DNA of 64,000 nt from Bilabrum cf. latius (taxonomy: Eukaryota): the NCBI GenBank assembly GCA_965178125.1, contig OZ237754.1, positions 744,001 to 808,000 on the forward strand, read 5' to 3'. Below are positions 1-64,000 of this stretch, in pieces; position 1 is the first letter of the stretch; every line of letters begins with the position of its first letter. Under the pieces are notes generated by a model that was given only the letters and a program-made list of their open reading frames with translations, had not been told where the DNA came from and did not search any database. The position numbers were made by a program, and so were the translations under genes.

Positions 1-3000
1 CGCCAGGGCAGCGTTCTGCAGGATCGCCTTCTCCACACGGGCCTCCCACGCAGCAGGCAGCCTGTGCTCCTCCACGAAGGCCCGCGCCAGCCGCCCCGCA
101 TCGTCCCCTGCCTCCACGCTCAGGGTCGCGGTCTTGCCGCGCGCATACTCTAGCTCGAGATCGAAGGCGACCCCGGCACCCAGCTGGCCGGTCCGGGTGG
201 TGCGGCCACCGTCGGTACGTCCTGCTGCCGCTCCACTCGTCACACCATCGTCGGCGGGATCCTGTACGAGGTGCTTGCGTGCCGCCTGCGCGACCTTGCC
301 TGCAAGGGCTTGCTCCATGGCCCGCAGCTGGGCCTCGGACATGGCTGATGCTCCGCGGCTCGCCGCCCCTTTGGCCAGTTTGTGTTCCCTGACGAACGCC
401 AGGCAGACCTCGTCCACGTCCTGCCCCTCTTTGACCACGAGTCTCTCCGTGCGACCCCTCGACACCTCCAGGTCGAGCTTGAGCACGGTGCGGGGAGGGG
501 CTGGGGCCGGGGCACCTCCCGAAGTGGGCGAGTCTTGCAGCAACCTGGGGCCCTCTTCACCCACAATGGACCCTCGACGACCGCGGGGCCGCGGCTGCTG
601 CTCATCGCCCGCGCCGCTGCTGCCATCACCAGCACCGGACCGTGCCTGCCTCTCGTTGAGGGCAGAGGCCGCCACGCTCTGTCTCGCCAGCTGCATGGCA
701 ACCACTACCTCAGAGGCCTGCGCGGGGTCCAGCCCGTGCCTCACGCAGAAATCTCGCGCCAGCATCAGGTCTCTTGCGTCGTCGTCTCCCCTCATCACCT
801 CCACAGGGGCTCGCTTGCCCTCTGCGTACTCAAGCTCAAGCTTCACCAGCAGCTCGTCCGAAGCACTCGAAGCATCGTCATCGTCATCGTCATCGTGCCC
901 ATCGGCATCGCCCCCCTCACCCACCTTCCCTGAGGCTCTCCCCACCAGAGCACCGACCCCATCGCCGGCCCCCGCCCCATCCTCGCCCTCGTCACCCACA
1001 ATCTCTCTCACCAGCGCCTCCCCGCCAGCCCGCGTGAGGCTAGCGCGGTACCTCCTGGACCGCATCCCCGCCCCCCGAATTGCCCTTAAGGTGCCATCCA
1101 CCCCGGCTTGCTGCTCACGGGCCTCTGCACGGTCGGCGTCAGTGGCTGGCCGGATCCCTCGCACGCTGACCGGGCTACGCGGGGGCCCGGGGCTGCCTCC
1201 AGCTGCCTGGCCCGCGGCGCCACCCTTCCTTTGTTCCCTGGCTCCAAGGTCCACTGCGGTAGACCGCGCACTCCAGGCGTTGCGGGCCGCTTTGTCCACC
1301 GCCCTCGCCACTCTGGCCACGTCGATCGCTGGCAGCCCATGACGCCTGGCAAACGAGGCAGCCAGCCTGACAGCCCACGCGCTCGAGGACCGGCCCGGCT
1401 CGGCATACCCCCTGCCCGCGTCGATCTTCCTCATCTCCGGCTCTGCAACCGCGAGCGGCACGCTGAGCGTGGCGGTGGACCCGCCCGGGAGCTTGAGTTC
1501 GATGGCGCACAGGCTAGGCCCCCCTGTACGCAGGCCGGCGTCGATCTCCGCCGCCGTGACCTCCACGGCTGCATCGGCGGCAGACACTGACCCGGCGGCC
1601 CGCCTCTGTGCCGGTTGCGGGGCCTGCGTCTGCTGCGGGTCTTGGTCCCTGACCGCTTGTTCCATGGCTTTCGCTGCGTCTGCTGCTGTGCCTGTGACGA
1701 TCGAGGTCCGCACCCTCCTGGCCCTGCCTCTTGATTTCTTGTTCTACTTGTTCTTCTTCTCCACCCCGCCCCTGGCCTCCCCGCTGCTGCTGCTTTCTTC
1801 TCCAGTTCCCTGGCCCGGCCCGTCGGCCCCACCGAACATGTCGTGCGCCTGCTGCACGAGCACCTGCACTTTAGGCGCCAGCTCATCGGACAGCCCCATG
1901 GATCGCACAAAGTCAAGCGCGGCCTCTTCGGGTGTCACGTCCGACTCGACCCGCAGCATCTCGATCCTGCCCTACTCCACCTCGATCTCGAGCACGGCCA
2001 GAGTCCGGCCCTCTGGCTCAACCTCGCCCTCACCTGCACCTCGCTCACCGCCATCATGGTCAGCACCATCCGGACCAAGGCCACCGGTGTCAATGGCAGG
2101 CACCTCGAACGGCAGCGGCTCCTGCGCTGCAGATGACGAGTGCTCCCCTGGCTTGCGGTCGGCGATGGTCTCCTGCTCTGCCGCCAGGGCCTCCTCCACC
2201 TCGTGGGGCGCTATGAGCTGGCCCCGGTGCGAGCTGGAGGCGGTCTTGCCCTTATCCTGCCCCCCTGGCCTTCGTAGCAGGCTCACTCGGCGAGTGCGTC
2301 GGTCTGGGCCGCCCCCAGCTGCACCTACCACTCCCAGCGGGCCGCTGTCGCCAGAGCCAGCACCAGCGACATCGCCAGACCGCCCTCGCTCCTGCTCTGC
2401 GGCTCGCATGCCCACCAAGGCCCCCTCTCTGGCCCTGTGCAGGGACATGGCAACCGCCGCAATCAGGTGCTCGGGCAGCTGCCGGCGGTTGGCAAAGGCA
2501 AGAGCCAGCGCATTGACGTCATCATGTTCCCTAACGTCCACCACACCGATCTGCCCCTGGGCGTACTCGATTTCCACCGATGCAACCACGGGCCCAGCCG
2601 GGGCCACCTGCCTCTGCCTCCCGGCGCCCTCTGTATTGCCATCCCCGACGGGGCGACTGCCCTATGGGTTGGCCTGCCTCTTCGCCTCCAGCCAGCCCGG
2701 CGCATGCACGTCAAGGGACCTCTTCTTCTAAAGCATAGAGGCCTCGTATCCCTGCTGGAAGGCGTCGCCGGGCATTTCCCCTGGTGCGCTGCCCTGCTGC
2801 TGCTGCCGCCGCCTCGCGACCTCGTCCCGCTGCTGGGCTGCTCTGCCTCTCGCCTTCTCGATCGCGCGGGCAATCTTCGCCACTGCCATGGGGCGCAGGC
2901 CCAGGTGCTGGGCAAACTCAGCGGCAAGGAGAGTGGCATCCGCGGTGCCCGGACAGGCCAGTTCCTCCTCCCAGCCCTCGTCTATCTCCAGCTCGATCAC

Positions 3001-6000
3001 AACATCAGGAGGGGGCAAGGGGAGCGGCGAAGCGCCGCCGCTACTTCTTCCAGGTCGCCTCGCGATGCTGACTCGCCGTCTTCGGTCGCGCGAGGCACCT
3101 GTTTCCCTCGGGTTTGCCTAGCCGTGCCTCGCCAAGCCGTCTCTGATCATGCCCGCCACGATGCCACGCTGCTCAGGCTTCACCCCATGCTCCCTGCAGA
3201 AGTCTGCGGCGAGCAGGTCGGGATCATCCGATCGCCGCACGTGCAGGTCCGCCTCCTCCCCCGCCCTGTGCTCCACTACGAGGGTAAATACCACGCTGTT
3301 GCTCCTGCTGCCCCTGCGCTGTTGCTCGCCTTCCCAAGCCCGCCTGCCCTTGTCCAGCTGCTCCGGACTCATCATCGAGGCGTGGGCACCGGAGCGATCC
3401 AGGGACATTGTTCCCTCGGTTTCGTCTTCCATAGATACCTCTGCCACCGTGGATGGTAGGATCACTTCTGCAGTGGCTCTGGGCGGGGTTCTGGGGCGTT
3501 GGGGCGACTCGATAGCGGGGCCTGGCACAGGTGCAGAGTCAGGCGCACCTCTGCCTTGGGCGGCACCTCTGCCATTCCCCTGCAGATCTGGCTGCTCCTC
3601 AACGGATCCAGAGCTGAGAGCTAGCTTGCCCCAGTCCACCAGCGCCTGGATCTCCGCGGGCGTCTGCCTGCCGTCCTGCTGTGCCTTTTCCTGATGCTGC
3701 CTGATCATGCCCGCCACGCGCTGCCTTTGCGGCCCCGTGAGCTTTGACGGGTCCAGTTTCCGCAACCTTCGGAGAAGCTCCAGGGCTGCTTCCAGAGCCG
3801 GCCTGCGGATGCCCAGTCGCTTGGCGGCCCGGCTAGCCTCTGTGGTGCCAGATGGGCTTGGTTCGCTGGTCGGAGGCACCTGCTTGTCTGTCGAGCCTGA
3901 GCGAGGTTGGACCGGCTCGACTGTATTTCCCGCTGCATCTCTGGATGTCGGCTGTATCTGAGTGGACGATCCATCGGGGTGAGGCCGCCTGCGAGGAGAA
4001 GCTCCAGCAGTGCGGGGCCTCTCATCGGCGGAGGGGCCTGCTTGATGGCTCGGAGAGGCCCTCGACCCAACGCCTCTGGCACCGGCGTGTGCATCTGTGT
4101 CCTGCCCGGGTCCAGCCTCTGTCCTCGCAGCGTCTGGCTCGGTGCCCAGCATTGGCTCCAAAGCGCCTCCCAGGTCCCTCTGAGGGGCCGTGGAGGGCCG
4201 GCCCCGGTCTTGTTGTCCCATCCCCGGCATCAGCTGTTCCTGGCTTGGGCTAGGGCCCACTTCGGGGCCATCTTCTGCGTCAATAGGCACGCGGCCCCGA
4301 GGCACAGGGACTGCTTGATCTGCAGCCGCGCCAGGCCCAGCAGTAGCACGACTGGACCTGTCCGAGCGGGCGACCTCGTTCGAAACGGATGCTTCACCGC
4401 TGTCCGAGTGGGCTTCGTCCTCGCCCTCGCTTACCCTTTCTAGCATGGAGTGGGCCTCGTTGACCACTGGCAGCTTTGCCGAGGCTGCGCTGGCACCGCG
4501 GCTCGCCATGTCTGTGGCTTCGCTGCCGGTATAGCTGCTGCCGGTATAGCTGCTGCCGGTTTGACTGCTCCCCGCAGCGGTGCTGCCAGTGTACCCGGAG
4601 CCGGTGCTTGAGGTACCCGTGCTGCCATTGCTTCCTGTGCTGCCAGTGCTTCCTGTGCTCGCGCTACCCTCGCTTTGAGCATCCGAATGGGCTGATGCGG
4701 ACTCGGGTTCGGGGGCGCTGCCGTCGGGGGGCGGGGCACGTTCCGCCGGCTGCCTGGCAGTAGCTTGAACTTTGCTGACCGGGTCTCTCGCAGCTGCGTT
4801 CGACACATTCTTGTCGCTGGCTGTGTCATTGACGCCGTCTTGCTCCTTGCTGTGGGAGGTACCGGGCACCGTCTGCACATCGGCAGGGGCCTTGTCATGC
4901 GTGGCCTGTTCACCGATGGCGTAGCTGCGGTCCGGCTCCCGAGGGGCAGCCTAATTGTGATTGCCTCTGGCAGCCGTTTCCTCTGCTGACTGCGCAGTAT
5001 CGTTACCTCGATCGCTGATGTCTTCACCGTGCTGATCGTGGTGCCCAAGCGCCGACACTGCATCCACCTCGGGACTGCTGCCCCTGGGAGCCGCCGCTGA
5101 CCGCTGCTATTCATCTCGACCTCCCGTGGGAAGGTGTTCCGCAGGTGCGTGCTCATTGTGATCGCCTCTGGATTGACCAGACAGCGCCTGGGCTGCCACA
5201 CGAGACCTGACCTGGCCCGTGCTCGGCTCATTCGGCTGTTGCAGCACCTTTGGAGCAGCGCCGTCCTTGCGAGCATCCTCTTTGCCTTCCTGATCCTCGT
5301 GCTGGACATGCCCGCCCTCCCTTCTTCCCTTTTCTGCGTCCTATTTGTCCTGCTGATCGTCGTCAGGACCAAACGAATACAGTCCGCCCACCACACCAGC
5401 CGGCGTGCCAGGTCCATGCGGGTCATCACCATCCGACCGCTTTGACTCCTCCTGCGGCCCGCCGTGCGCTGCGCTGGCAGTGGCACCGGTGCTGCTGCCT
5501 AGTCGAGGTCCGCCCTCGCCATCTAGATCCACGCTCGGCTCCATCACACTGCCTGCACCACCCTGCAGTGCAGCTGCCAGCACGGCTGCATCAGCATCCT
5601 CGTCGTCCCCACCTGTGCCGCTCTTACCATCCATGCTCGCCGAGGACCGCCTTGACCTTTGCCCCTACCTGCCTCCGTATAGATCGTGTGAAGCTCTTTG
5701 CAAATCATGCTCATGTCCTCTTCCTTCCTCCAGTGCCGCCTCCTGTGCTTTCCTCCTGCTCTCCTCCCCGAGTATGTCAGGGTGCAGCTGCTCCAGCGCC
5801 TGCATGAGGTGAGACACGCTGTCGATGCCTTCCAGCTGGCTATCCGTGGGACCAACGTCCTCGGGTGGACCACCGCTGGCTCCACTGGCGTCGATGGCTC
5901 GATCCACAGAGGACCTGCGCTTGTTCGTGCTCGCCCTCCGCTGGCCGTGCATAGACCCTCTGGTGGAGCCCTTCCTGGTCCCACCCCTGCCCCTGCCCCT

Positions 6001-7146
6001 GCCCCTGCCCCTGTCCCTGTCCCTGTCCTTGCCTGCCCCCTTGGCGGATACCCGGCGGGGAGACCTCTTGAGAGCCCCCTGTGAGACCCTGCGGACCCCG
6101 CCGCCCTTCTTGCGCGGCGCCGGTTCCGCAAGATAGGAGGGGCCCCCGGCCAAGTAAGGAGACATGGCCGCAGCTGCCAGTGACCTCCTCTGCCCCCCCG
6201 CCTGGGGGCCTGTCCCGCTGCCTCGCTTGTCGCCGCTGGCTCTGACCATCCTGGTATCTCCTCGTGGGTCGACTTGTGGGAGCGTGGGACCGCTTCCCAC
6301 CGCACCCAAATCATGTCTGGACGCAGGTACACTACTAGCAGCACCGCCAGCAGAACCTGGGGGCAGCAGGGGCTGCCCCGCCGCATCCACGGGAACGGTA
6401 GCACGCTGGTGAGAAGCCACGGTGGGGGTCATGTAACCCCTGGTCATCGATGCTCCTGGCGAGCCCCAGGCTTCCGGCGCCTCGCCATCGAGCGGAACCT
6501 GGCTGTCGCCGGTGTCCGGTTGGAGAGCTCCGTCCTTGGCTCCAGGTGTGCGTAGGAGGCGCCTGCGCGGCCCCACGGTGGGACGCATGGTGGCAGAGAG
6601 CGGCTTGCCGCTGGGTTCCTCGCTTGGTGGTGCTGGCCCGCCGGTGCCTCCACCTCGGGGTCCTTGGGATGCGGTTGCACCCAGCGCCCGTGATCTGGCC
6701 TGTGCCGTTTTGGACAAGCGATCGTCCCCGCGTGGTTTCCCGTCGCCACCCAGCAATGCATCATCTTCAACTTGCTCTAGATTACCGTCAGCTGCGACTC
6801 GTACCGTGACCGGCTCCATGTTTCCATTCTCGTGCATGACGTAAACCACCTTTAGCTCAGATCCGTCCGTCTTCGATTCGCGGCCCGCTGCTGACGACCT
6901 GCGAGCGCTAGACGCACGCTGCGAACCGAACGGACCTTGATCGTTACGAAAATGCGTAGGTCTATTGCGGTGAGCATCGGCATCGTTGGATTCCATCGCA
7001 TCTGCCAAAAGCCTTGCTTGCTCGCGGTGCTTGCGAGCGCTTGCAATAAGTCGACGCTGCTCGCGCCGCCGCTCTTGCTGCCTGTGCTCCTTCAACACTG
7101 GCTACAGTGGCATAGTGCCTCGCCCAGACGCCCGCATGGATGACAT
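1..7146 (-). CDS. Large uncharacterised protein (>2380 aa, 3' end outside window) with at least 8 copies of a ~40-aa module (PFU-like) separated by low-complexity linkers
   Basis: ORF-track pieces 5665-7098, 5341-5634, 3118-4878, 2728-3018, 1972-2607 and 1744-1959 share one frame and are separated only by TAG (7102, 5665, 5341, ~5107, 4951, 3118, 2728, ~2662, 1972, 1744). The frame stays open to base 1. Likely ATG at 7146 (MSSMRASGRGTMPL*PVLKEHRQ). Module examples: VAFDLELEYARGKTATLSVEAGDDAGRLARAFVEEHRL and VVFTLVVEHRAGEEADLHVRRSDDPDLLAADFCREHGV. Confidence 0.75.
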
Positions 7147-26348: not shown

Positions 26349-26560
26349 CCCTTGCAGACGCGGCGAAGGCCACTGTGCTCGAGGTGATGCATCTCGCCGC
26401 CCCTTGGAACCGGAACCTCGGCTACTGTTTGTCTTACTAGACGCTTGGGAGCGCCTGGAGCTCATGCAGAACGACTGTGCAGCCGGCATCTTCATGCAGT
26501 TATTTGTTGCTCCGGATAGATAGTAGTAGGCGCAGCATTTCCACTCATACTGAGAGAAAT

Positions 26561-36087: not shown

Positions 36088-36236
36088 TTGAGGTGCTGTC
36101 ACGATATGTGTATGCCAGTGGTACGCATGAGTGTTTAGGGCCCCTGTGTGCCTTCTAGCATTTATAGCGTGCCAAATGGATTCGGCGGAATTTTGGATCA
36201 TATTGATCGTAGATCTACTCCAACAAGGAAGGCAGT

Positions 36237-38309: not shown

Positions 38310-38400
38310 TCGAGTGGATTGGCTGGCGAAAGTTCGTCTAGGTTCGAATGTCGTTGCTTAGGATATATTCGTCAGGTTTAGAGTCGTGGTGGCAATAAAG

Positions 38401-43257: not shown

Positions 43258-43292
<35 letters not shown>

Positions 43293-46200: not shown

Positions 46201-46512
46201 CCTAGCCAAGCGCAGCAGCGTGCGGCGCCCGCGTCCGTCAAGTAGATGGGTCAGGTTTTGTTCGTGCAGAAAGGCGGAACAAATCATTCGCAGGTGCAGA
46301 GCATACACTGATAGATCTGAACCGCTGGCCCAGGCTCGAAACTCCTTGGCACTCAAATGCACCGGTCGTGGTACCTGATCTAGCATAGTTCCTGCCATGT
46401 AAGCACTGGACTATCCAATTTCTATCCCATCGGGTAACTGAGGTGTGTTTTTCTGTGTGTAGGAGGTCCACTTGCTCTGCAATTCCCACGGAGCTACTTC
46501 GTCTGAGCTCAT
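38401..46512 (-). CDS. FAN1: Fanconi-associated nuclease 1 (VRR-NUC), ~2703 aa, apparently intronless
   Basis: N-terminal LARLIGRKGPWFR block; TPR-region LLASPYQPHRRGRWWQRLCVDLHH; SVEELALQHY...GWRGLHCEG; AFACPYQTGPLDL; PD-(D/E)xK nuclease SGLPDLTLWR...FVEVKGPRDVLADKQRAW. Single frame from ATG 46512 to TGA 38401 with more than 20 TAGs and no internal TAA/TGA. Confidence 0.9.
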
Positions 46513-46787
46513 GCCCCGAGGTTGCCTAGGTCCGAAAGCGCCTTAACTAGCATATTCTTGCGATAGTATTCGATATATATATTCGGTCGTCTACTCACCG
46601 CGTTGTGCATGCAAGTCTGTGCTGGGGAGGTGCACTGCACTCATCCTCTGCACACCCCGGATCGTCGGGTTCTGCAATTGAGCTGAGCACAAGAGCTTTG
46701 CATGGTCATGCATATGACTGTAATGAGTATTGTGGATAGGCGTAACGCAAAGTACTGATCCTTGAGTAGTATTGAGAAGCGCCAGGA

Positions 46788-48650: not shown

Positions 48651-48699
48651 CTGCTCGCCAGGCTTGATGCAACGGTGTTGACGGTAACTTTTGGCTATG

Positions 48700-51988: not shown

Positions 51989-52361
51989 CGGGATGGCGGG
52001 GTGGTGGAGCAGGCACGTGGTAGCATGGAGGGCGTGTGACGGGATGGCGGGGTGGTGGAGCAGGCACGTGGTAGTATGGAGGGCGTGTGACGGGATGGCG
52101 GGGTGGTGGAGCAGGCACGTGGTAGTATGGGAGGCGTGTGACGGGATGGCGGGGTGGTGGAGCAGGCACGTGGTAGCATGGAGGGCGTGTGACGGGGATG
52201 GCGGGGTGGTGGAGCAGGCACGTGGTAGCATGGAGGGCGTGTGACGGGATGGCGGGGTGGTGGAGCAGGCACGTGGTAGTATGGAGGGCGTGTGACGGGA
52301 TGGCGGGGTGGTGGAGCAGGCACGTGGTAGTATGGGAGGCGTGTGACGGGATGGCGGGGTG
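51950..52361 (+). repeat. 51-bp minisatellite, 8 copies (GTGGTGGAGCAGGCACGTGGTAGYATGGAGGGCGTGTGACGGGATGGCGGG)
   Basis: Units start at 51950, 52001, 52052, 52103, 52154, 52206, 52257 and 52308. Head-to-tail with no spacers; copy 5 has one extra G. Confidence 0.97.
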
Positions 52362-52812
52362 TAGTGTGTAGATCTAGTGTTAGCGCCGGTAGAGTCGGCA
52401 CCTGGAGGAGACCGGAGTGTGGACACGGAAGGGGTTATAGGAGGGAGGAAGGAGGTTGGGTCGCCACCAGAGAACTCGGGAGTGTGTTTTAAGCCGGCGA
52501 TGGCCAGCATTTAAATCATCATCTGTGCCAGCGCCTTCACAGTCAAGGGGCGCGGCCACCTATGGCAGGTAGGTGGTACCCGAAGGGGGGCGGGGAGTGG
52601 TGTCAGCCTCTGCGACCCGAATCCATAGGCGCTGCGACGGGAGGGACGCGCGCGTATGGACGGAGCGTATAGCCAGGAGGCATTCCAGTGTCGCTGCCCC
52701 GGCGGCCGGGCCAGGTGGCCTTGGTTCAGGTGTATGTTCCGCTGATCCCGATCTAGGTGCGCGGCGCCCCTTAAGATTCGGCGGCAATGTGGCCAGAACC
52801 GCCAGCGAATCA

Positions 52813-55255
52813 ATGCGGTCAGCCGCGCTTGTGGGCGTGATATGTGCAACCTATTGTTTGGGGTAGCGGCTTGAAATTTCGGAGAAGCCGGGGCGGCACA
52901 CATACTCGACAATGAATGTGTCCGTGGCATGGTCGGGCATGACTGGAGTGTCGAGCGAAGACTGGGTCGGACTGTTCGAAGCTGGAGCGGCTGCAAATGA
53001 TTACATATCATTTGTGCATGTTGATGTCGACGGTACCTGGCCATCAGGCAACGGTTCATACGACTTTCAAGTCCCGAACTACCGGACGACGCTTGAGGTG
53101 CGAGGATGCCGTTGCTTGCTATTCTTGGGTCTCTATTCGCACTATTGCCTGCCCGTATTGCTTGTGGTGTATCTTAACAGTGTGCATTTCGTGCTTATAC
53201 CCTACGCAGTTCCGCTATTACCTTGGGGATGGCTACGACAAACTCACCGCAACGAGTCGCACCTTCAACTTCACGTCACCACCGGGCAGCGACTCCACCG
53301 CGCAGCCGCAGTCCATCCACATCGCGCCAACCGGCACGAGTGGCGAGCTATTTGTGCAATGGATCTCCGCGTCCAAGACGCCCGCCCCAGTGGTGTACGT
53401 CTGGAAAGGCTCGAGCAGCACGGACGAGCGCCCGGACGTTGTCTTTCACGCGGCGAACAGCACCACGTATCTCGCGAGCGACCTCTGCAATGCGCCCGCA
53501 ACCACCGAATCATGGGCCTACTGGAAGCACCCGGGATTTACCCACACCGCGGTCGCCGCATAGCTCACACCGGGCGCCCTGTACTTGTACGCTGTCGGCC
53601 AGCCCAAGTCCCCTGCTGTGACGAGTGAATATGGGCGCGGCGACGGCGCCAGTGCCAAGCAGTGGCAAGGGATGAGCGAAATCTTCCAGTTCCACGCCCC
53701 CGGCGCGGCGCCCAAGACAGCGGAACCTGCCGGCGCTGTGGCCATGCGTCCAGCAAGCGGCGAATCGACGACAGTCCGCGACAACGGCAGGTCCGATTTC
53801 ACCTACATGATCGTGTACGCAGACATGGGCGTGGCTGCTTTCCCCGCGGCGGGGGGCACTGCCCTCCGTGTGACCGCCGAGATCGACCTGGCGCAATCCA
53901 CCGGTGGACTCGGCTGGCCGATGCCCGAGGCCGTGTGGCACGTGGGTGACATTTCTTACGCCGAGGGCCGGGTCAAGGTGTGGGACCAGTTCCAGGCTTT
54001 GATCGAGCCCATTGCGGCGCGGGTGCCATACCTGGTGACGGTCGGGTGAGTCGGTCTCGCACGCATGGGTTTTTCTTTTTTTTTCTTTTTTTCTTCCCCT
54101 GTCTTCCTAGCTTGCTTTGGGTTGTGGCGTGCCGCGGGGTACTAAGGGTCAAGCCCGTAGATCTAGATTCTAGGCTGTTTCTGGTGCATCGCACTGCAGC
54201 GCACTTTAGACGCCATCCCGTGTGGCTTTCTTGTCGACCATCGCTTCGTTATTGACCACCCCTACGTCTTTGACCACCTCCGCAGCAACCACGAGCAGTG
54301 CACGAGTGCCGACCCCAACGGCAACGACCCCTCGGGCGCCCCTGGACCCGCGGGGTATCACCCCGCATGGGGGGACATGGGCAACGACAGCGGGGGGGAG
54401 TGCGGGCTGCCGACCTCCCTCCGCTTCGCGGCCCCGACCCGGAGCCAGACCCCAGGGAACAACGGTGTGTGGTGGAACGCCGTGAACGTGGGCATGGCCC
54501 ACCTGGTGACCCTGGCGGGGGAACTTGACCTGTCCCCGGGCTCTCCCCAGTACAATTGGCTGGCCCGGCACCTGGCCACAGGGGTGGACAGAGCGGCCAC
54601 CCCCTGGCTCTTCATCGGGATCCACCGGCCCCTGTACAACAACGAGGCGTACGAGGGCGATTACAAGGTCTCGCAGCACCTGGCCGAGTTCCTCGAGCCG
54701 CTGCTCAGGGAACACGCGGTGGATGCGGTGCTCGCGGGGCACTACCACAGCGTGCTCGTCACATGCCCCATCGCGTTCGGACAGTGCGCCGACGGGGTGG
54801 CCAAAGGCACGCGGGAGCCAGGATCCGCCCGGACGCTGCTGGCAAAAGGCAGCGAGGCGGCGGTGCGAGAGGTCGACGCGAGGCTGAGGGAACAACAAGA
54901 ACTCAACGGACACGGGGCGGTGGAGGTGCTCGAGACCGCTGTGGAAGAAACCCGCTAGGGCCCCCACTCGTCACGGGGCCTCCTCCGCCACACCCGCTTC
55001 AGCCAGGGCAAGCTCAGGCAGCTCTACGAGCAGGGGCTGGCCTCCTCGCCAAACGCTACAGTGCACTACACCATCGGGTCCGCGGGCGCAGCCCTGGACG
55101 ACGTGACGCTGTACAGCGAGCCGTGGCGGGTGGATTTCTTCGACCTGGACTTCGGGTACCTTCGCGTGAATGCTACCCGAGAGACGGCCGTGCTGGACTA
55201 CGTGAGGAACGACCACGGCGACGTGCGGTACCGCCTCGAAATGACCAAGAACTGA
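52813..55255 (+). CDS. Secreted purple acid phosphatase (Fn3-like + metallophosphoesterase), 3 exons, ~696 aa
   Basis: Signal peptide MRSAALVGVICATYCLG*RLEIS; DWVGLF; PQSIHIA; PGFTHTAVAA*LTPGALYLYAVG; metal-ligand motifs YADMG, GDISYA, GNHE (split by intron 54046-54285), HRPLY, GHYH; HYTIGSAG; FGYLRV. Intron 1 at 53098-53209. TAGs at 52864, 53561 and 54956; TGA stop. Confidence 0.92.
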
Positions 55256-55423
55256 GTCTCAAATTGACTCAGCTGGCCATCCATCAGTCTTTGATAACCT
55301 TTTCTGCTTAACTGTTGGGACAAGATCGAGAGAGTGGTGGTGGATTGGTGTGCAGCTGCAGCTGCACTCTAGTGCGCAGTCCCGCTTCACGTATCACCGA
55401 CTAAGTTGCTCATATTTTAGAAT

Positions 55424-58400
55424 TTACAATGCAATGAGGCGCAACGCAGCACCGAGTCCAGCGAGAGCCATCGAGACTCCGGCATCCTCCCTCGAATCGC
55501 TGGCGCTGACCTTGACCGCCGCAAGCTCTTCCTCAAAGTCGTCCACGGCTTTCTCATCTGCATCCTGCATGCCAGCCAGCAGCCGCAGTCCGAGATGCTG
55601 CCTGTCGCCGCCAGAGGCACCGGCCCCGCCGCTCGGTCCGGCCTCCCAGCTGTGGCCCATCGTGAAGAGGAGCTCGGCGCAGTCCGCGCGGCTGGGCAGC
55701 GCCGCAGGTACTGCGGAACCGGCGCCGCGCGATTCGGAGAGGCCCTCCAGCGCCCACCCGCGGACCTGCTCCGTGGCCCCGGGGCCCAGCGCGGGCAGCA
55801 CAGCGGCCGCTGCCGATGCCACGTCAGGGGCCGCAGGTGCCCGCGGCATCCCCGCGCACAGCCGAGCCGCGGCGGGGTGCAGGAGAGCGCAGGCACCATC
55901 AGTCCAGCCGATCGGCGAGGAGGGGTCGTCGCCCTCGTCTTTTCCGACGCTGCTGTGCCCTGGGGAACACAGCCGCCGCCCGAGGCGGGCGGCCTCCCGC
56001 ACCACCTCGGCGGGGCTCTGCGCGCCACAGTGCGCTGCACCCCAGGCATCGCCCGAGCCGCGTCGACCGGTAGAGGCGGGGGCTGCCATCGAATAAGATC
56101 CGGAATCGTAACCGGGCCCGGACCCGGGACCGTCCTGGATCTGTCGCTGCCTCGCTTCCAGCACCGCCACTGGAGCCCCCGCTGCCTCGAGCATCAGCTG
56201 GCCCGAGGGAACAAAGGAGGCAGCCGCGCGGCGCCATGCCTGTTCCGCAGCAAGAGCCCCCGACACAGCACCCAACCCCGCGTCATCATCGCCATTCCCA
56301 CCGCCGTACGTCGAAGCCAGGGACCCCGCGCCATACCCACCCATGATGCCCCCGCTGGTGCCTGCATCGCCCCCCCCGTAACCGAAAGCGTACATGTCAC
56401 CCCCGGACCCACGGTGCGTCTGCAGTGCAGCTCCAAGCAGGCCAGCTCCCGCGCCCAGCACAACATCCCCGCCCGCGGCCATCTCGCCCCCCTCACACCT
56501 GTGCCCCGACTAGACCCCCCCCCCTGCTCCTCCTCCTGCGGTCCCACCATCACCCGACCCACTCGTTGCACCTTGTTCCCCGGGCATCTCAAGCACCCCC
56601 GCATAGGCCCCCCCGAGGCCCGGCCTGGAGGCCACCCCCACGCCCGCCGTGGCGCCCTCCCTCCTATCACCGCCTGCAAGGCACGCGCACCGGAATGCCT
56701 CGTCGGGGGCGTCAGCGGCCGCGCACAGACCCGTGGCAGCGGCCAGCAGGACCCTGCGGACCACCACGGAGGAGTTTCTCGCCGCGGAGGAACGTTCGCT
56801 GGTGGGACCCGGCGCGGCCGTGCCGCCAACCCTAGCCCCCTGCTGTTGTTCCCTCAACAGCCCCCCGCAGGCCAGTAGAAGGTCCACGGATTCGCGGATC
56901 CCCGCGACACCCCCCTCCAGCACCCGCACCAGCTCGGTCCTCGCGCCGGGCCCGGGCACCTCCCGGCCCCTGGCCCAGCCCGCCCGGGCCTTGGCCAGCA
57001 GCCCGGCGCAGCGGGCATCAGCGGCGGCCAGCGCGCCCTCGGCCGCCATGGCCGCCCCGGTTGCAACCAGCGGGAGCAGCTCACCCTCCGCGGCCCCCAC
57101 CGCCTGGACCGTGCTCGGGTCCAGCCGACCCGGGCCGGAGGAAGACCCGGAATCGGAAATGGAGGTGATAGCGCGCCAGGCGTCCGCCACCAGCTCCGCC
57201 GGGGGTGTCCTAGCCAAGCCGGCCAACAGCTCCCTGTTCCCCAGGTGTCCGTTGAGCTCTCCATGCTCCTCCTTGCCCTCCTCCCTCTGGCCCTACTCGT
57301 CTGTGGAGAGGTCCTGCAGGGACAGCGCCCCGCCCTCGGCTTGTTCCCTGGTTCCGACAGGATCGGACCCCGCGCCCTTCCCCCTGCCCTCATCCCCAGC
57401 CCCACGGGCCTCCCCCTAATACCCCCCCATGATTCGCGATTTCTCACTGGCCTCTAGCTCTGCCGCTTGTACCCTGGCCCTGGCGAGAGCCGTGACGGCC
57501 CGGCTGCAGGCACGTGCGGCCCTCCAAACCGCCGACGCACCCCCTCGGCCACTCTAGCCACCACTGCTGCTTTGGCCACCCTCCTGCAGCAGGCCGGCAG
57601 GGCCCGCCCCCCTCAGACGGAAGGCGGACTCCCCGGCCACAAAGGGCAGCGGCGCGGTCGCATCCACCTCCCACTGCACAGCCGCTTCCCGCGCCGATCG
57701 GGCCCCGGCAAGCAGTGCGCCCCGCTGGGAGCTCGAGCCGCTCTGACCACCGTACGTACCTCCAGGCCCCAGGTCGGATTCATCGAACGACCCAACCGAG
57801 TGCCCCCAGCCGCCCGTGTCGATACCGTACGACGCACCGTGCCTGGCGCGAAACGCGCGGCCCGCCGCCGCCAGCTGCAGGCAGCCGCGCGCAGCCGCGC
57901 ACACGCGCCGCACGTCTCCCGCCGCCCCGGCCCTCTCGGCCTCCCCCGCCAGCGTGTTCCCCAGAGTGACACCAAGCTCGTGCGCGTGCCCCACCGCCAG
58001 CTCGTCCGGAGCCACCCCGGCCCTCGCTGCACCGGCCGGGTCATACCCCCACCCCACCGCGGCATCGTACAGCGCCCCCCGCAGCAGCCCGACGGTCCCG
58101 CGCGAGGAGGAGGACGACGACGAGGAGATGGACGCTCCTGCAGGCATCGACGGTGCCCCGAAGGCTCCCACACCACCGTCCCCTGCACCCTGCATCATGA
58201 TACCCAGGGAACACCGCGCGAGGGCCAGCGCCTCTCCCTGCGCGCACAGCGCCTCCCGACCTCTCTGCGATAGCAAGGGCAAGAGGCCCAGCGCCCTGAG
58301 GCACAGCAGCACCCTGGCGTGCTGGGCGCTTTTGGCCTCGAGCAGCTGCAGAGCGCCGGATCGAACCCCGCTGGCGCGGACGAACTGCTTCCGGTCGCAG

Positions 58401-61400
58401 CCAGGGCCCGCGTCGGCCACGGTCCCGCGGGCCGCGGCGCCGTCAGCGGAACCTCTAGGCGGCCGGAAGGGCGCCGCGAGGACCATCTCGGAGACGTCCA
58501 TGACGGCGGCCGTCAGCCCCGGGACGCCCTCCTCCTCGGCGCTGTTCCCCAGGGAACAAGAGCTCCCGTCCGCGGCAGCGGCAGAGGCAGCAGGAGGCAT
58601 TGCCTGCCTCAGGGCCTAGAGACCAGAGGACACCGCGCCGGTGCTGCGCAGGAGCCCCCGCCCGCCGTCCCGGGCTACGGAACCGGCGGCGCCGCGCAGA
58701 CCCAGTGCCTGCAGCACGGCGGCCGCCTCCGGGCCTCCAGCAGTGCCTCCGTCCTCCCCTTCCTCCTCCTCCATGCCTCCAGCACCGCCCTGTCCCGCGT
58801 CCATGCCCGTGCCTATGTCCATGTCCATGCCCATGCCCTGCCCCATGCCAGTGCCCCTGGCCCTGGCCGCCGATACCCTGGCCCTGCCCTCCGCGAGGTC
58901 CTTCTGCAGCCCGCCCACGAAGGCGCGCAGGACCCTCTGGAGAGCGTCGGTCGTCATCGAGCGGCTGCGGCCGCCCGGGGCGGATGCGGCCGGCACCTGC
59001 AAGGGCTCGAGCTTCAGAGCCGCGGGCAGGCTACAGAGCGTGCCGGTGTCAGAGTCGGACCGAGCAGGGGCCACCGCTGCCAGGAGGAGAGCGGCGGGGA
59101 GCGGCAGCCGCTGGGGAACAGCGCCCGCCACCAGAACCAGGGAGTGGCGGTCCTCTTGTTCCCTAGATGGTAGGGCCCTTGCCACGTCACCGGTCCCGAA
59201 CACCAGACCTAGGAAAGGGAGGGCCGCCGCTGGGGAACACACGAGGGGTCCGGTGGCTCTCGGCAGGCGAGCGTGTTCCATGACCTGGTGGGACTGGGAG
59301 GATGCCGCGCGGATCACACCGACCCCGCCGCTGATTTGCCCAAGAGCGGCGACTCCTCCAGAGGCACTGCCCCCTTCCATTGCGAAGGCTGTGGGCATAG
59401 CGGAACTGCGGCGCCGCATGAGCACCAGCGGGTTGAGCTGGGGGGCCGCTCGGCCACTGCCCGCGCCACTCGCGGGGCCCATCTCCGCCGAGTCAGCCGC
59501 GGCCGCGCTCGTCACACCGATGCCGACGGCCTGCACGCCACGAACCGACGGCAGTAGCAGCACCCCACTGAGGATCCGGCCCCTGGCCAGCTCCTTCCCA
59601 CTCGTCACACCAACGTCGAGTCCCGCGATCCCGACCACGGGGCCCACCCTGCCCGCCGCCCCGCGAGCCGGCAGCAGCGGCAGCACCTCGCGGGCGGCCG
59701 GGCCGGTCAACCTGAGCGCCGCCACGTCCGGGATAGAGCGCAGGCCGTCCTGTCGTGGAGAGTGTAGGTCGATTTGTGTTCCGTTTCTCTTCCACCCGGC
59801 CGCGGCCACCCACGCCTCCTCGACCCACCCGCTCCTGACCCTGTCCAGCGGGGGCGCCTGCCCCCCCACGGCGCTATTGGCGTCCTGCGCCCCAAAGGCC
59901 AGCACCCCGACCGACGCCTCCTGGGTGCATCGCACTGCAAGAAGGGGCCAGTGCCGCGTGAGGGAGTGATCCCCCAGCATCGGCGGGGGACTCTGGGACG
60001 CCATCTCGGTGGCTGGGAGCGACGCGGGGCGGGGCAAGGCCCAGGGGCCGTCGTCGTGCGCGTCTTCGCCTCCGCTCGGCTGGTGCTGCTGGTGCGCGCT
60101 GGAATGCGACGCCTGGGTTCGTGTTCCCTGGCCTTCTCGGAGGATGGCAGGGGCCCCGGCGGTCCGCAGTGTGACGAGTGGGGAGCACCCGATGAGGGCT
60201 AGAAGGGGCACTGCGGGGGAGTAGGAGGACGAGGACGAGGCTGTACCTTGTTCCCTGGGCCCTTGTTCCCTACGTGATGAGGAGGACGAGGACGAGGAGG
60301 AGGAGGTGGGTGCCTCCTCGCCAATGCCCGTGCCCGAGCTGCTACCGCCAGCACTGTCACGCCCGGCCCTCAGGGGCGGCTGCCTGCTGGGTGCGGCGGG
60401 GGAGAACAGGTTCACCGCCGATCCGATCAGCGAGCCCAGGAAACCGGAACTTTCGGTGGGCTGGTCGTCGCGGGGCGGCGTGCCTGGCTCTTCTGGCGAG
60501 TCACCACCGCCCGCTGTGACGTCATCACCCGCTGTGACGTCATCGCCAGGCTCCTACGACTCTCCACCAGATGTCCCGTCCGATATCTAGGCCCTCGCAT
60601 GCCGCTCAAGCCAGTCCGCTGGAGATGCCCCGGGCAGCACCAAAGAAGCCGCGGCGTGCAGCGCCCCCGGCCCGGGCAGCCTGAATCGAGTGAGCGAATA
60701 CACGGGGGACTCGGAATCGGGCGCAGCACCATGCAGTGCACCGTCCAGTGAGCTGCCAGCGTGGTACGCCGCGACGCACAGCTCCATGCCGAGCCCAGCT
60801 GCCGACGAACCGTCCGAGCCGGAGCCCGAGCCACTTGTGGTGGACTCCACGTCCGACAGGACGAGGACACCTCCAGCAGCGGCGCCGCGCATCTTGCGAA
60901 ACCGCATGCGCGGCATGTGACTACCCGACTGCATCGATCCGATCCCCAGGAGCGGCACCGTCTCGGCGTTGTTCCCCGGCCCTGCCGCCGCGGCTGCCGC
61001 CACCACCACCAGGGGAGAGTGCGCCACCTCCGCAGCGCTTCCGCTGCTTCCGCTGGTGGTGACCCGGGGCCGAGGCAGGCCACCGCGCGCAGTCCGCAGC
61101 GCCGCTCTCAGTGCCGGCTCAAGGGGGGCGACCCACGCCAGGCACGGGGGTACAGCGTCTGCCTGTGCCGAGGTGTCGTCGTCCTGGACCAGTGGCATGG
61201 GCGTCAGCACGTAGCAGCAGGACACGGAGTCAGTTATGACCACCACTTGGGCGCACACCATGGTCACCGACCCACTCGTCACATCGTGGTCTCCAAGGGC
61301 CTTCCCATTGCCAGAATCATCAGCGGCAGCAGCATCAGCTACCCCAGCCCCCGCACCCGCCCCAGCCCCAGCCCCCACCGCTGAGGTCAGTGGCACGCAG

Positions 61401-63405
61401 GCGGCAGGGACCTAGACTCTCGCGAGGCCGATCCTGGTCGCATCCACCACCCCCCCAAGACCCCCCCGGCCCCCGTCTCTTCTGCCGGGCTGCCCGGCCC
61501 CCGCCAGGCAAGCAGCAGCAAGGGCGCCCATGGGGTCGCTGCCCGCATCGAGCACGGCGGAATCAGATCCAAAGCCAGAACCAGAAATGCCTGCACCAAA
61601 ACCGGCACCGGCGCCGGCGCCTGAACCTGTTGCATCTACTGCGCTGCTGTTACCTCCGCTGCTGCCTCCGCTGCTGTTGCCTCCGCTGCTGCCGATAGGA
61701 GACTCAACCAGGGAAGCCTCAGGCCACTGCCGGGCAGACACGTGCACCGCCGCGCCCCTGCCTTTGCCCGCCCACTCGATCTCTTTCTCCAGCAGCGCCT
61801 CGCCCAGTCGGCTTGCGCCCCCGCTTGTTCCCTCGAGTGACACCGCTCGGGACGCCTCCATGGCGCCCTCATTCCATGCCGCCCGAGCCGCGGCATCGAG
61901 CACCTCGGCCTAGCTGCCCATACCAGTTGTTCCCTGGGATCCAGCGCTGGAGCTGCGGAGGGCCGCGAGACAGGTCCCCGCGTCTGCCTTGGAGGCAAGC
62001 AGGGGTGGCAAAAGGCGCACCGCCGTCCTGGCCCTGGCCAAACTGGCGGGGCCCGCCAGCCCCGCGATCCCCGGAGCGGACACACGGCCCGATAGACGGA
62101 CCGTCTGGCTGTGCGCCGGCCTGCGCATTACCCTGGTGTTGACCTGGAGGACTGTTCCCCGGGTGCCCGCGAGGAGCCACGCGTCCACGCACCCGGACCC
62201 GGCCACGGCCTGGGCGGCGGCGCGCGCCGGGCTCGGCTGCTGCTGCGGGGACCGTGTGACGAGTGCGAGCTGGTCCGGAGGCGGCTGGGGGCACTTGCCC
62301 GCCTGCAGGGCGGTCACAGCTTCCCACGGCAGCAGCGGAGCCTCCCCCGGGCTCGCAACCCAGTGGGGAGCCCTGCAGGTTGCAACCGGCACGTCCACGG
62401 TGCGGCCCGGCCGCGCGACCGAAGGGATGGTCAGTGTGGTCGCGATCCGATCCGCGGTGCACCACGCCGCGAGCCGGCCCTCCACAGAGGCGGCCATGAC
62501 CACGAGGCACGGCTGCAGCTGGGCGGGGCCCCTTGTTCCCTAGGGGAGCACCTGCGGAACTACCGCTGCACTAACGGCCACTGTGCGCGGCGCCAATCGG
62601 AACCCGTCGTTGTCTGCTGGATCGACTTCGGGGGCAAGCTGGCAGCCCTTGGCAGTGGCCGAGGCAGGCCCCAGCCCCAGCATGAGCACCTTCGGCTGGG
62701 GGGCGGACTGCTGCGCCTCGGGTCCTGCAGAAGGCGGCGGCATGTCTGTGTCTCGGTGGTGTGACGAGTGCGGCGGCTGCCACAGCATGAGGAGCGTGCC
62801 GGCCGAGGCCCACCGCCAGCGGGCGGGGGGGCACGGGGTGTGAGCGATGCCGGGAGTGTCCGCCCGGCCGACGCACACATCAACATCTGCGACGAGGACG
62901 ATGCGGCGCGATTAAAGTGCGTGAAAAATGTCGGTCAGTGCGAGGAGGTGGCACTGCCAGTGTCGTCGCGGGGAATCGCGTAAAAAAGTAGGTGCGCAGC
63001 AGCAATCTACGCCGAATCGCTGGGGCGGAGCTCGTTCATGGTCATCTGCACCTAAACCAAGTTCAACACGAGTTAGTGCATAGGTGCTTGTATTGCTCTC
63101 TTACGTTCTCTGGTTGCCACACGCAGCATGTGCTCCACGAGCAAGGGGTATCCGCGGTCCGTGCCATCCTCTAGTTGCAAAATAGTATCAGGGCCGGCTT
63201 CAGCCAAGCTCGACCCATTTTCAAGTCCCACCCTCTGCACCGAGCGGATAAACCCAGTTCCGCCTTGTGTCTTGTTTCGCTTAGCGGCACGTTCGTCCCC
63301 GCCTGGGGTACCGGCGGCCCGCTTACTCCCAATTACTGCGACTCCACCGCCGGGAGTCTTGGGCAGTTTATGAATACTTCCACCTGGAGCGGATATTTCA
63401 TCCAT
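55424..63405 (-). CDS. NUP133: Nucleoporin Nup133-like protein, 2 exons, ~2587 aa
   Basis: Exon 1 63105-63405, phase-1 intron 62887-63104 (GTAAGA...CGCAG), then one frame across 10 TAGs (62540, 61910, 61412, 60587, 60554, 58616, 57554, 57416, 57293, 56510) to TAA 55424. Recalled Nup133-like blocks: WRWASAGTLLMLW, VMAASVEGRLAAW, and LQLLEAKSAQHARVLLCLRALGLL...REALCAQGEALALA. Confidence 0.6.
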
Positions 63406-63686: not shown

Positions 63687-64000
63687 GTGAGAACAGTAAT
63701 CACTCAGCAAAAAGTTCTTGAAACATTTAAACAAAAGGCTCGATGTGAGTGTATTGCAGATATCGTAAACGCGCGTGCGAGGTGGCGATGGAACCCCAAG
63801 TGGTTCCCAAGCGACGCCCAAAAAAGCGCCAAATTCGAGCTTTTTATCCTGGTTTTGAGCCAGATGAATAGTCAATAGGATGCTCTATCCCATCTGAAAG
63901 CACGGGGTCTGGACATTCCATCTTCGACTGCCTCTGACTGGGTGAAGAAGGCAGCATCCGGACAAACGGTCGGTGCGAGAGGCGGTTCAAATCCGACATT
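63687..64000 (+). CDS. Possible 5' part of an HTH-containing gene (transposase-like), running off the window
   Basis: The frame stays open through TAG 63876 to the window end: MNSQ*DALSHLKARGLDIPSSTASDWVKKAASG resembles an HTH (IPxST..DW.K) of pogo/CENP-B-type proteins. AT-rich context. Confidence 0.25.

What the first reader, a model, noticed from the sequence alone, without database searches (positions are those of the whole stretch)
1..64000. Non-standard nuclear genetic code: UAG is a sense codon while UAA and UGA remain stops
Seen: about 80 in-frame TAGs (manual count) in 13 genes join ORF fragments without any frameshift, for example 14 in an 11.6-kb frame (9986-21568) and more than 20 in FAN1. 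I found no internal TAA or TGA in these frames, and their ends are TGA (12 genes) or TAA (CMSS1 23346, Nup133-like 55424). TAGs fall inside conserved domains with no room for an intron: FKBP RGRAF*FRLGAG (48423), COMMD4 KQVIS*LLGG (31873), PAP HTAVAA*LTPG (53561). Knowledge: in most eukaryotic variants UAA and UAG are reassigned together, and UAG-only reassignment is known from very few lineages (from memory, the fornicate Iotanema spirale, one rhizarian and some ciliates). Inference: this GC-rich protist may be an independent, possibly undescribed case.
Basis: partly seen in the sequence, partly recalled or inferred. Interest (0 to 1): 0.95.

Follow-up and report, generated by a model that had tools for sequence, protein, structure and literature searches.

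The report
UAG read as glutamine, nuclear genes
This GC-rich protist reads the stop codon UAG as an amino acid, most likely glutamine, while keeping UAA and UGA as stops: a rare kind of genetic-code change, here apparently in a lineage where it has not been described.

Summary
In 11 gene models (16,970 internal codons) there are 76 in-frame TAG, 0 TAA and 0 TGA. COMMD4 adds two more TAG, giving 78 in 12 genes. Reading TAG through raises the longest frame from 942 aa to 3881, 2713, 2495 and 2408 aa; reading TAA through changes nothing.

If TAA meant the same as TAG, about 20 internal TAA would be expected from CAA:CAG = 142:550. None is seen.

RNA contigs from two other studies carry GT..AG-spliced transcripts that keep the TAGs unchanged.

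A sister species from metagenomes (L001/L002) has its own in-frame TAGs at other positions in the same genes. A more distant relative (L004) has a 2037-codon frame with no TAG that ends in TAG, so it uses the standard code.

TAG pairs with CAG in 4 of 7 comparisons with close relatives. Glutamine is about 1000-fold likelier than any other residue. The code therefore matches NCBI table 15.

A PIGA tree puts the organism among stramenopiles, outside every lineage reported to have a UAG-only change.

The tRNA(CUA) and eRF1 could not be examined because no genome is held. Verdict: real, a new member of a known kind.

The parts
1..7146 (-). Large repeat-rich ORF (2382 aa within the window; its C-terminus runs off the edge) with about 9 copies of a short PFU-like unit. 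10 in-frame TAG.
9986..21568 (+). 3860-aa ORF with no family match. 14 in-frame TAG, no TAA or TGA, ends in TGA. The last TAG lies two codons before the TGA.
21702..23348 (+). CMS1 (U3 90S pre-ribosome subunit) homologue. 1 TAG (21885). Ends in TAA.
23583..26735 (-). PIGA (GPI GlcNAc transferase) with a long N-terminal extension and an insert. 5 TAG, all upstream of the second glycosyltransferase domain. Ends in TGA.
26561..29434 (+). Two-domain methyltransferase. TAG at 26603 aligns with CAG (Gln) in relative L004. Ends in TGA.
30696..32055 (-). COMMD4, at least two exons. TAG at 31873-31875 aligns with CAG (Gln) in the sister species. A second TAG lies at 30759-30761. Ends in TGA at 30696.
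32419..36087 (+). 1222-aa ORF with no family match. 6 TAG. Ends in TGA.
36224..38381 (+). Well-covered five-exon gene (509 aa, no family match for its last exon). No TAG. Its four GT..AG introns are seen in RNA contigs, which shows that runs X5-X7 hold RNA.
38401..46512 (-). FAN1 nuclease homologue (2703 aa; HTH, TPR and VRR-NUC domains). 23 TAG, all upstream of the nuclease domain. Ends in TGA.
46688..48650 (+). FKBP-domain gene, two exons joined across 47077-47166. 3 TAG (46887, 47001, 48423); the last lies inside the FKBP fold. Ends in TGA.
52256..55401 (+). Purple acid phosphatase mRNA with three exons (52256-53095, 53208-54044, 54285-55401). 3 TAG in the CDS (52864, 53561, 54956), all kept in a spliced RNA contig. 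Ends in TGA.
55424..62788 (-). 10 TAG. Ends in TAA.

Best explanation
This is nuclear DNA of a GC-rich, intron-poor protist, probably a stramenopile. Its translation system has reassigned UAG from stop to glutamine. UGA (the main stop) and UAA still terminate. This is the code listed as NCBI table 15.

Shown here:
- TAG lies in frame inside conserved genes.
- It is kept in spliced mRNA.
- It is as frequent in frame as out of frame.
- It is interchangeable with CAG between close relatives.
- TAA and TGA are absent from coding frames.
- A sister species shares the trait and a more distant relative does not.

Inferred, not shown:
- UAG is decoded by a tRNA-Gln with anticodon CUA, one base change away from tRNA-Gln(CUG). 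Such a tRNA pairs with UAG but not UAA.
- eRF1 has lost or weakened its recognition of UAG while keeping UAA and UGA.
For: 1. Frames. Reading TAG through gives ORFs of 3881, 2713, 2495 and 2408 aa against a maximum of 942 aa. Reading TAA through gives no gain.

2. Codon counts. 76 TAG, 0 TAA and 0 TGA in 16,970 internal codons of 11 models. CAG:CAA is 550:142, so 19.6 TAA would be expected if TAA shared TAG's meaning.

3. Domains needed for function lie downstream of TAGs. Examples are FAN1 VRR-NUC after 23 TAG, the PIGA GT1 domain after 5, FKBP with a TAG inside the fold, and the phosphatase domains.

4. RNA. Runs X5, X6 and X7 (two studies other than the DNA run) give contigs with GT..AG joints. 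Spliced contigs with 0 other letters carry TAGs 52864, 53561 and 54956 (X7 record 22) and 46887 and 47001 (X5 record 13, X6 record 16). No differing letter was reported at any of the 29 TAG in 36001-56000. X5 contigs also run unbroken through 18 of the 23 FAN1 TAG.

5. Relatives. L001/L002 (COMMD4 87% identical, with the same methyltransferase-COMMD4 neighbourhood) has a 663-aa frame with 3 TAG against 273 aa under the standard code, and its genes end in TGA. L004 (54-62% identical in COMMD4) has a 2037-codon frame with no TAG that ends in TAG.

6. Amino acid.
- The window TAG in COMMD4 aligns with the sister's CAG.
- Two sister TAG align with window CAG. At one of them Q is also kept in L003, L004, L005 and P0126-P0128.
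- Window TAG 26603 aligns with L004 CAG.
- Substitution frequencies were taken from 871 aligned window-sister residue pairs. The six window-sister sites (partners Q, Q, Q, P, T, A) give lnL -13.95 for Gln, -20.89 for the next best (Thr) and -22.22 for Glu.
Against: - No tRNA gene is in the window or in L001-L004, and no genome is held. The decoding tRNA and eRF1 are therefore unseen.
- There is no peptide evidence.
- The amino-acid call rests on 7 sites. In distant solved homologues the residue opposite three window TAG is Glu (human COMMD4, lupin PPD1, human FAN1), and it is Lys/Ser/Glu in FKBPs. At the COMMD4 site the next relatives also have Glu, so that one site fits Glu as well as Gln by parsimony.
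- Both TAA 'stops' are followed by an in-frame TGA within 7 and 10 codons. The case for TAA as a stop therefore rests mainly on its absence inside genes.
- ORF logic cannot show whether UAG also terminates in some contexts.
- X5 is flagged 'probably DNA' by the tool, so its unspliced FAN1 contigs may not be mRNA.
- The taxonomic placement rests on one gene with a long branch.
Confidence: 0.85

Rival explanations
1. UAG is a sense codon but stands for another amino acid. Glutamate is the first candidate (as UAG does in one uncultured ciliate), then Lys, Ser or Leu.
For: Distant solved homologues have Glu opposite three window TAG. P0126-P0128, L003, L004 and L005 have Glu at the COMMD4 site. 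TAG also sits next to E, K and S runs, and the neighbour-composition test did not single out Gln.
Against: None of the 7 nearest-relative partners is Glu; 4 are Gln, each encoded by CAG. The likelihood from window-sister substitutions favours Gln over Glu by 8.3 ln units and over every other residue by at least 6.9. The sister's COMMD4 TAG lies in a column where the window and all six nearer relatives have Gln. One TAG interrupts a QQQQ_QQQQ run.
Confidence: 0.08
2. The code is ambiguous. UAG is translated inside genes but also ends translation near some 3' ends, as in Condylostoma or karyorelict ciliates.
For: An ORF search cannot detect a UAG stop once UAG is read through. The 3860-aa ORF has a TAG two codons before its TGA.
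Against: All 11 complete models reach a TGA or TAA. Sequence beyond those stops looks non-coding. In-frame TAG is spread along genes, including 23 in one gene. The known ambiguous codes affect several stop codons at once, whereas here UGA and UAA are never internal.
Confidence: 0.05
3. This is the ordinary UAR=Gln code (NCBI table 6 type). UAA is also sense but rare because the genome is GC-rich.
For: TAA is rare in every frame (309 occurrences on both strands against 768 TAG). Both terminal TAA are followed closely by TGA.
Against: CAA is a fifth of Gln codons, so 19.6 internal TAA are expected and 0 are seen. Reading TAA through lengthens no gene. Segments upstream of the TAA that bound four ORFs have GC 0.50-0.60 and non-coding composition.
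Confidence: 0.01
4. The in-frame TAGs are not translated. They could be assembly or sequencing errors, RNA editing back to CAG, removal by splicing, or decaying pseudogenes.
For: Nothing positive. Only contigs, not raw reads, could be laid, and contigs drop rare variants.
Against: The same letters stand in contigs of runs from three studies, with no differing letter at any TAG in 36001-56000. Spliced contigs keep five TAG. All 8 introns lie away from the TAG. Random damage would also create TAA and TGA, but none is internal. A second species has TAG at other sites in the same genes.
Confidence: 0.01

Closest known systems
Iotanema spirale (Fornicata) nuclear code: UAG = Gln, UAA and UGA stop. 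Source: Panek et al. 2017, PMC5304391, passages read.
   Same: The same reassignment of UAG alone to glutamine with UAA kept as a stop. The same predicted mechanism, a tRNA-Gln(CUA) plus altered eRF1.
   Different: It belongs to an unrelated supergroup (Metamonada), whereas the window groups with stramenopiles in a PIGA tree. Iotanema is known from a transcriptome. Here there is genomic DNA, RNA contigs, a sister species with the trait and a standard-code relative.
Ciliates with UAG-only changes: Protocruzia tuzeti and some phyllopharyngeans (UAG = Gln), and NCBI table 15. Source: McGowan et al. 2024, PMC11687900, discussion passages read; table checked.
   Same: The same code table (TAG = Q). 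UAG and UAA are uncoupled.
   Different: The window is not a ciliate: GC is about 0.65, genes of 8-12 kb lie close together, and PIGA falls apart from labelled alveolates.
Rhizarian exLh (UAG = Leu) and Scotinosphaera (UAG = Ser). Sources: PMC5304391 passages; PMC11687900 discussion passage.
   Same: UAG alone is reassigned, and UAA remains a stop.
   Different: The amino acid differs. Leu, Ser and the other residues fit the relatives' data at least 6.9 ln units worse than Gln. PIGA does not group with the labelled rhizarians.
UAR = Gln codes (table 6: many ciliates, hexamitin diplomonads, some green algae). The taxon list is recalled; the coupling of UAA and UAG is stated in the abstracts listed.
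   Same: UAG is read as glutamine.
   Different: UAA is not a sense codon here: 0 seen against 19.6 expected.
Phages using code 15 (TAG = Gln). Source: PMC9523058, abstract seen in the listing.
   Same: The same codon table.
   Different: Those are bacterial viruses. This is a eukaryotic nuclear locus with spliceosomal introns.

Membership tests
UAG-only reassignment to Gln (NCBI table 15 type) | UAG occurs in frame inside conserved protein-coding genes | tested here: met
   78 in-frame TAG in 12 genes. Examples lie in the FKBP fold, the COMMD4 N-terminal domain and the purple acid phosphatase N domain.
UAG-only reassignment to Gln (NCBI table 15 type) | The UAG codons persist unedited in mature (spliced) mRNA | tested here: met
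   Five TAG lie in GT..AG-spliced RNA contigs with 0 other letters. No differing letter was reported at any of the 29 TAG in 36001-56000. Contigs only, no raw reads.
UAG-only reassignment to Gln (NCBI table 15 type) | UAG stands for glutamine | tested here: met
   4 of 7 nearest-relative partners are Gln (CAG). lnL is -13.95 for Gln against -20.89 for the next best over six window-sister sites. The sample is small, and distant homologues show Glu at three sites.
UAG-only reassignment to Gln (NCBI table 15 type) | UAA is not used as a sense codon | tested here: met
   0 internal TAA in 16,970 codons against 19.6 expected from CAA:CAG. Reading TAA through gives no ORF gain.
UAG-only reassignment to Gln (NCBI table 15 type) | UGA is not used as a sense codon | tested here: met
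   0 internal TGA against 1.55% of off-frame triplets. 10 genes end in TGA.
UAG-only reassignment to Gln (NCBI table 15 type) | A tRNA with anticodon CUA and Gln identity | not testable with these tools
   No tRNA in the window or in L001-L004. No Rfam hit. No genome is held.
UAG-only reassignment to Gln (NCBI table 15 type) | eRF1 altered in its stop-codon recognition motifs | not testable with these tools
   eRF1 is not in the window and there is no genome to search.
UAR = Gln code (NCBI table 6 type) | Both UAA and UAG occur in frame as sense codons | tested here: not met
   TAG 76, TAA 0.
Ambiguous stop/sense codes (Condylostoma, karyorelicts, Blastocrithidia) | The reassigned codon also terminates near the 3' end of transcripts | tested here: inconclusive
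   All complete models end in TGA or TAA. One TAG lies two codons before a TGA. 3' ends cannot be read from contigs.
Stramenopiles (taxonomic placement) | Marker genes branch within labelled stramenopiles | tested here: met
   One gene only. PIGA falls inside a 27-row clade (100/99) that holds all labelled brown algae, chrysophytes and oomycetes. It is apart from labelled alveolates, rhizarians, a malawimonad and amoebozoans. The branch is long (1.06) and the nearest rows are unnamed. Only top hits were sampled.

The most novel reading that the evidence does not exclude
This would be the first nuclear genetic-code change in stramenopiles, and an independent origin of the rare UAG-only (UAG = Gln) code. 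It occurs in a clade with at least two deeply diverged members, whose orthologues are 48-87% identical. A standard-code relative lives in the same metagenomes. Together these offer a natural before-and-after system, with genome and transcriptome data, for asking how UAG is uncoupled from UAA: which tRNA-Gln(CUA) arose and which eRF1 change discriminates G from A at the third position.
Probability: 0.5. Interest if true: 0.8.

Novelty: new member of a known kind. Interest (0 to 1): 0.7.

Why it matters
Nuclear code changes are rare. Cases where UAG and UAA have different meanings are the rarest class, so each independent origin is a test of how eRF1 and tRNAs can tell the two codons apart.

Here the change appears in a lineage not reported to have one. 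There are DNA assemblies, transcriptomes, a sister species that shares the trait and a relative that lacks it, so the tRNA and eRF1 changes could be pinned to one branch.

There is also a practical point. Any standard-code annotation of this genome will shatter its genes. The public protein collection already holds only the piece of its PIGA that lies after the last TAG (P0003, 289 aa). Gene callers and metagenome pipelines should use table 15 for this clade.

Tried and rejected
- **Neighbour composition around TAG** (±2 residues, 301 neighbours): no amino acid stood out, and Gln ranked 17th of 20. Uninformative.
- **PIGA homologues** (120): all three TAG in the aligned part fall in lineage-specific inserts or gapped columns.
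- **FAN1 whole-length word search** among shorter proteins: 1 hit out of 8000 scored candidates. Low-complexity words swamped the search.
- **FAN1 C-terminal 1200 aa against 1.84 billion representatives:** 1539 hits, 150 listed. Only 1 of its 8 TAG sites is covered, and that column is variable (W 11, K 10, D 6, E 5... Q 1), partly through misalignment.
- **FAN1 N-terminus against PDB:** no hit.
- **Methyltransferase scans** of viral contigs and genome contigs: no relative found.
- **ESM Atlas on the PIGA C-terminus:** the family was recognised but the taxon information was of no use.
- **Earlier findings of this scan:** none for this genome, its look-alikes or the key words.
- **RNA holders:** The look-up of sequencing runs listed none on record as RNA. 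That three runs hold RNA was shown only by their spliced contigs.
- **Coverage gaps:** parts of the laid stretch without RNA cover (48.7-50.7 kb) are not used as evidence.
- **Label of the EukProt row GECG01...:** it could not be resolved from papers.
- **AU test** of the window grouping with alveolates: it did not finish in time.
- **Supplementary tables** of the code papers could not be seen. They may list further taxa.
Full report
**What the window is.** It is 64 kb with GC 0.54-0.72 (mean about 0.65) and no N. It is closely packed with eukaryotic nuclear genes. Pfam recognises:
- CMS1, PIGA and a two-domain methyltransferase;
- FAN1 (HTH, TPR, VRR-NUC) and an FKBP;
- PP2C, a COMM domain and a purple acid phosphatase.

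PDB searches add COMMD4. Several very large ORFs have no family match. The proteins are rich in Ala/Gly/Ser/Gln low-complexity stretches.

**The observation.** Under the standard code the longest stop-to-stop frame is 942 aa. If TAG alone is read through, frames of 3881, 2713, 2495 and 2408 aa appear. If TAA alone is read through, the top of the list does not change. Reading the much commoner TGA through gives a maximum of 1424 aa, spread over many frames.

I built 11 gene models, three of them spliced according to RNA joints. They hold 16,970 internal codons with 76 TAG, 0 TAA and 0 TGA. In the two other frames of the same genes, TAG is 0.55%, TAA 0.15% and TGA 1.55% of 33,938 triplets. In-frame TAG (0.45%) is therefore barely avoided, while TAA and TGA are excluded entirely. 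COMMD4, which is not in that count, has two more TAG, for 78 in 12 genes.

**Is TAG translated rather than removed?** I could lay contigs of four public runs on 36001-56000.
- Three runs from two studies other than the DNA run (X5, X6, X7) carry joints with GT..AG ends at eight places: 36333-36504, 36634-36729, 36799-36901, 37246-37420, 47077-47166, 51162-51263, 53096-53207 and 54045-54284. They therefore contain spliced RNA, and the organism has short introns.
- None of the 29 counted TAG in this stretch lies in an intron.
- The spliced phosphatase contig (X7 record 22: 52256-53095 / 53208-54044 / 54285-55401, 0 other letters) carries TAG 52864, 53561 and 54956.
- The spliced FKBP contigs (X5 record 13, X6 record 16) carry TAG 46887 and 47001.
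- X5 contigs run unbroken and identical through 18 of the 23 FAN1 TAG. The tool flags X5 as possibly DNA, so those may not be mRNA.
- The only differing letters reported lie at 48821-50818, outside genes.

These are contigs, not raw reads, so rare variants would be missed.

The conserved domains that make these proteins functional lie downstream of TAGs (the FAN1 nuclease after 23, PIGA GT1 after 5). Near-complete read-through at every TAG would be needed, which amounts to reassignment.

**Are TAA and TGA still stops?** Ten genes end in TGA and two in TAA (CMS1 and the 55.4-62.8 kb ORF). One gene runs off the window.

Both TAA are followed by an in-frame TGA within 7 and 10 codons, so on their own they prove little. 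The stronger argument is quantitative. CAG:CAA is 550:142, so if TAA shared TAG's meaning about 19.6 internal TAA would go with 76 TAG, and none is seen. Four ORFs are bounded upstream by TAA. The segments beyond those TAA have GC 0.50-0.60 and non-coding composition.

The TAA that closes the N-terminal COMMD4 frame at 31591 is most likely an intron donor (G|GTAA). Human COMMD4 continues past that point, and the COMM domain is found in the next frame downstream.

**Relatives.** A scan of metagenome contigs with a COMMD4 alignment returned 79 loci.
- *L001 and L002* (GC 0.58-0.59) encode COMMD4 at 87% identity. L001 also holds the same convergent methyltransferase neighbour (48% identity over 650 aa), so these are orthologous loci of a sister species. 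In L001 the methyltransferase frame is 663 aa with three in-frame TAG, against 273 aa under the standard code. The L001 methyltransferase and COMMD4 both end in TGA.
- *L003 and L004* (GC 0.68-0.70; COMMD4 54% identical by tblastn, 62% in the best segment) have a 2037-codon frame with coding-type composition, no TAG, and TAG as its terminator. Further frames of 1394 and 771 codons also lack TAG. At the window's rate about 9 TAG would be expected in the first frame alone.

The trait is thus shared by two well-diverged species and absent from a more distant relative. This rules out an assembly artefact and places the change on one branch.

**Which amino acid?** Solved homologues were a first look, and they pointed to Glu. 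Human COMMD4, lupin PPD1 and human FAN1 each have E opposite a window TAG, while FKBPs have K, S or E. Three Logan/JGI COMMD4 relatives also have E at that site.

The closest relatives say otherwise.
- The sister species has CAG (Gln) where the window has TAG in COMMD4.
- The sister's own COMMD4 TAG faces CAG in the window. It also faces Gln in L003, L004, L005 and P0126-P0128.
- One of the sister's three methyltransferase TAG faces window CAG. The other two face Pro and Thr in variable stretches.
- The window's methyltransferase TAG (26603) faces CAG in L004.

I took substitution frequencies from the 871 residue pairs aligned between the window and L001. The six window-sister sites (partners Q, Q, Q, P, T, A) then give lnL -13.95 for Gln, -20.89 for the next best (Thr) and -22.22 for Glu. 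Over 65 COMMD4 loci the column of the window TAG is variable, with Q and D the commonest residues at 13 each.

Gln is therefore well supported but on few sites. Glu in distant homologues is what one expects at a Gln site. Under this reading TAG makes up about 10% of Gln codons. The resulting code is NCBI table 15.

**Searches that added nothing to the amino-acid question.**
- Neighbour composition around TAG.
- PIGA alignments.
- A word search with the whole FAN1.
- A full HMMER search with the FAN1 C-terminal half: 1 of 8 sites covered, in a variable column.

**Who is it?** The window's PIGA finds only a 289-aa fragment of itself in public proteins: P0003, the part after its last TAG. The next hits are 55-60% identical over the conserved core.

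I built a careful ML tree of 41 rows, made of the window, 30 labelled rows and 10 of the best unnamed hits, out of the 120 listed. The window falls inside a 27-row clade (100/99) that holds all labelled brown algae, chrysophytes and oomycetes. It is separate from labelled alveolates (Chromera, Colponema), rhizarians (Nonionella, Lapot), Gefionella and amoebozoans. Its nearest rows form a 6-row clade (99/96) and are all unnamed.

The caveats are one gene, a long branch (1.06), and sampling limited to top hits. My reading is a stramenopile outside oomycetes and the sampled ochrophytes, held with moderate confidence.

**Comparison with what is known.** According to the discussion of PMC11687900 (passages) and PMC5304391 (passages), UAG and UAA nearly always change together. 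The exceptions named there are:
- an insect-associated rhizarian (UAG = Leu);
- the fornicate Iotanema spirale (UAG = Gln);
- Scotinosphaera (UAG = Ser);
- several phyllopharyngean ciliates;
- Protocruzia tuzeti (UAG = Gln);
- one ciliate with UAA = Lys and UAG = Glu.

The window shows the Iotanema/Protocruzia code in what appears to be a different supergroup-level lineage. Four full-text searches found no report of a nuclear UAG change in stramenopiles. That covers open-access papers and bioRxiv only, and supplements could not be read.

**Mechanism.** Reassignment itself is shown. The mechanism is inferred from the cited papers and general knowledge. A tRNA-Gln with anticodon CUA, one mutation away from CUG, reads UAG and cannot read UAA. 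In addition, eRF1 no longer competes at UAG. Neither component is in the window: there is no tRNA, no Rfam hit and no genome.

**Verdict.** This is a real, well-supported UAG-to-sense reassignment, most likely to Gln, with UAA and UGA kept as stops. The kind of code is known. The lineage appears to be new.

Noticed in passing
window 49341-51341: The DNA run X1 shows 102-189x word depth here against about 7-16x in most other bins. GC is low (0.54), there is one 1401-base contig with 4 differing letters, and RNA cover is almost nil. This is probably a multi-copy element.
   Followed up: no
window 51949-52361: A tandem array of a 51-base unit, 8.1 copies, 96% matches. It overlaps the start (52256) of the phosphatase RNA contig.
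   Followed up: partly
window 44005-44671: An acidic low-complexity stretch of FAN1 (runs of Asp/Glu codons) draws contigs from many loci. Depth is 258-1595 and there are many non-GT..AG pseudo-joints. These joints are repeat artefacts, not introns.
   Followed up: partly
window 21560-21568: The 3860-aa ORF ends ...Met-Thr-TAG-Pro-TGA. A TAG two codons before the stop is the one place where dual use of UAG could be hidden.
   Followed up: no
window 31591-31593: The TAA that closes the COMMD4 N-terminal frame is most likely part of a GTAA intron donor. The COMM domain continues in frame 30699-31595 (-).
   Followed up: partly
window 55298-60277 (+): A 1659-aa antisense frame (10 TAG) overlaps the 2454-aa ORF on the - strand. 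Such long shadow frames are common in this GC-rich DNA and should not be called genes.
   Followed up: no
window 8311-9090 (-): The N-terminal part of a PP2C phosphatase (Pfam 3.9e-13). The gene is evidently spliced and was not modelled or counted.
   Followed up: no
window 1-7146 (-): A protein with about nine copies of a unit of roughly 50 residues (LELEYA.GK ... F...H.L) that weakly matches the PFU domain. One copy has TAG where the others have E, Q, R, A or G.
   Followed up: no
L004 2798-8911 (-), 9575-10618 (+), 12641-14956 (+): The standard-code relative has COMMD4 and the methyltransferase in tandem, not convergent as in the window and L001. A 2037-codon gene ending in TAG lies divergent from COMMD4, where the window has its 1222-aa ORF. 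No sequence similarity was found between the two.
   Followed up: partly
window 36224-38381 (+): The gene among those with the highest RNA contig depth in the laid stretch (509 aa, four introns) has no TAG at all, where about 2 would be expected. This is in line with avoidance of the new codon in highly expressed genes, but it is not significant on its own.
   Followed up: no
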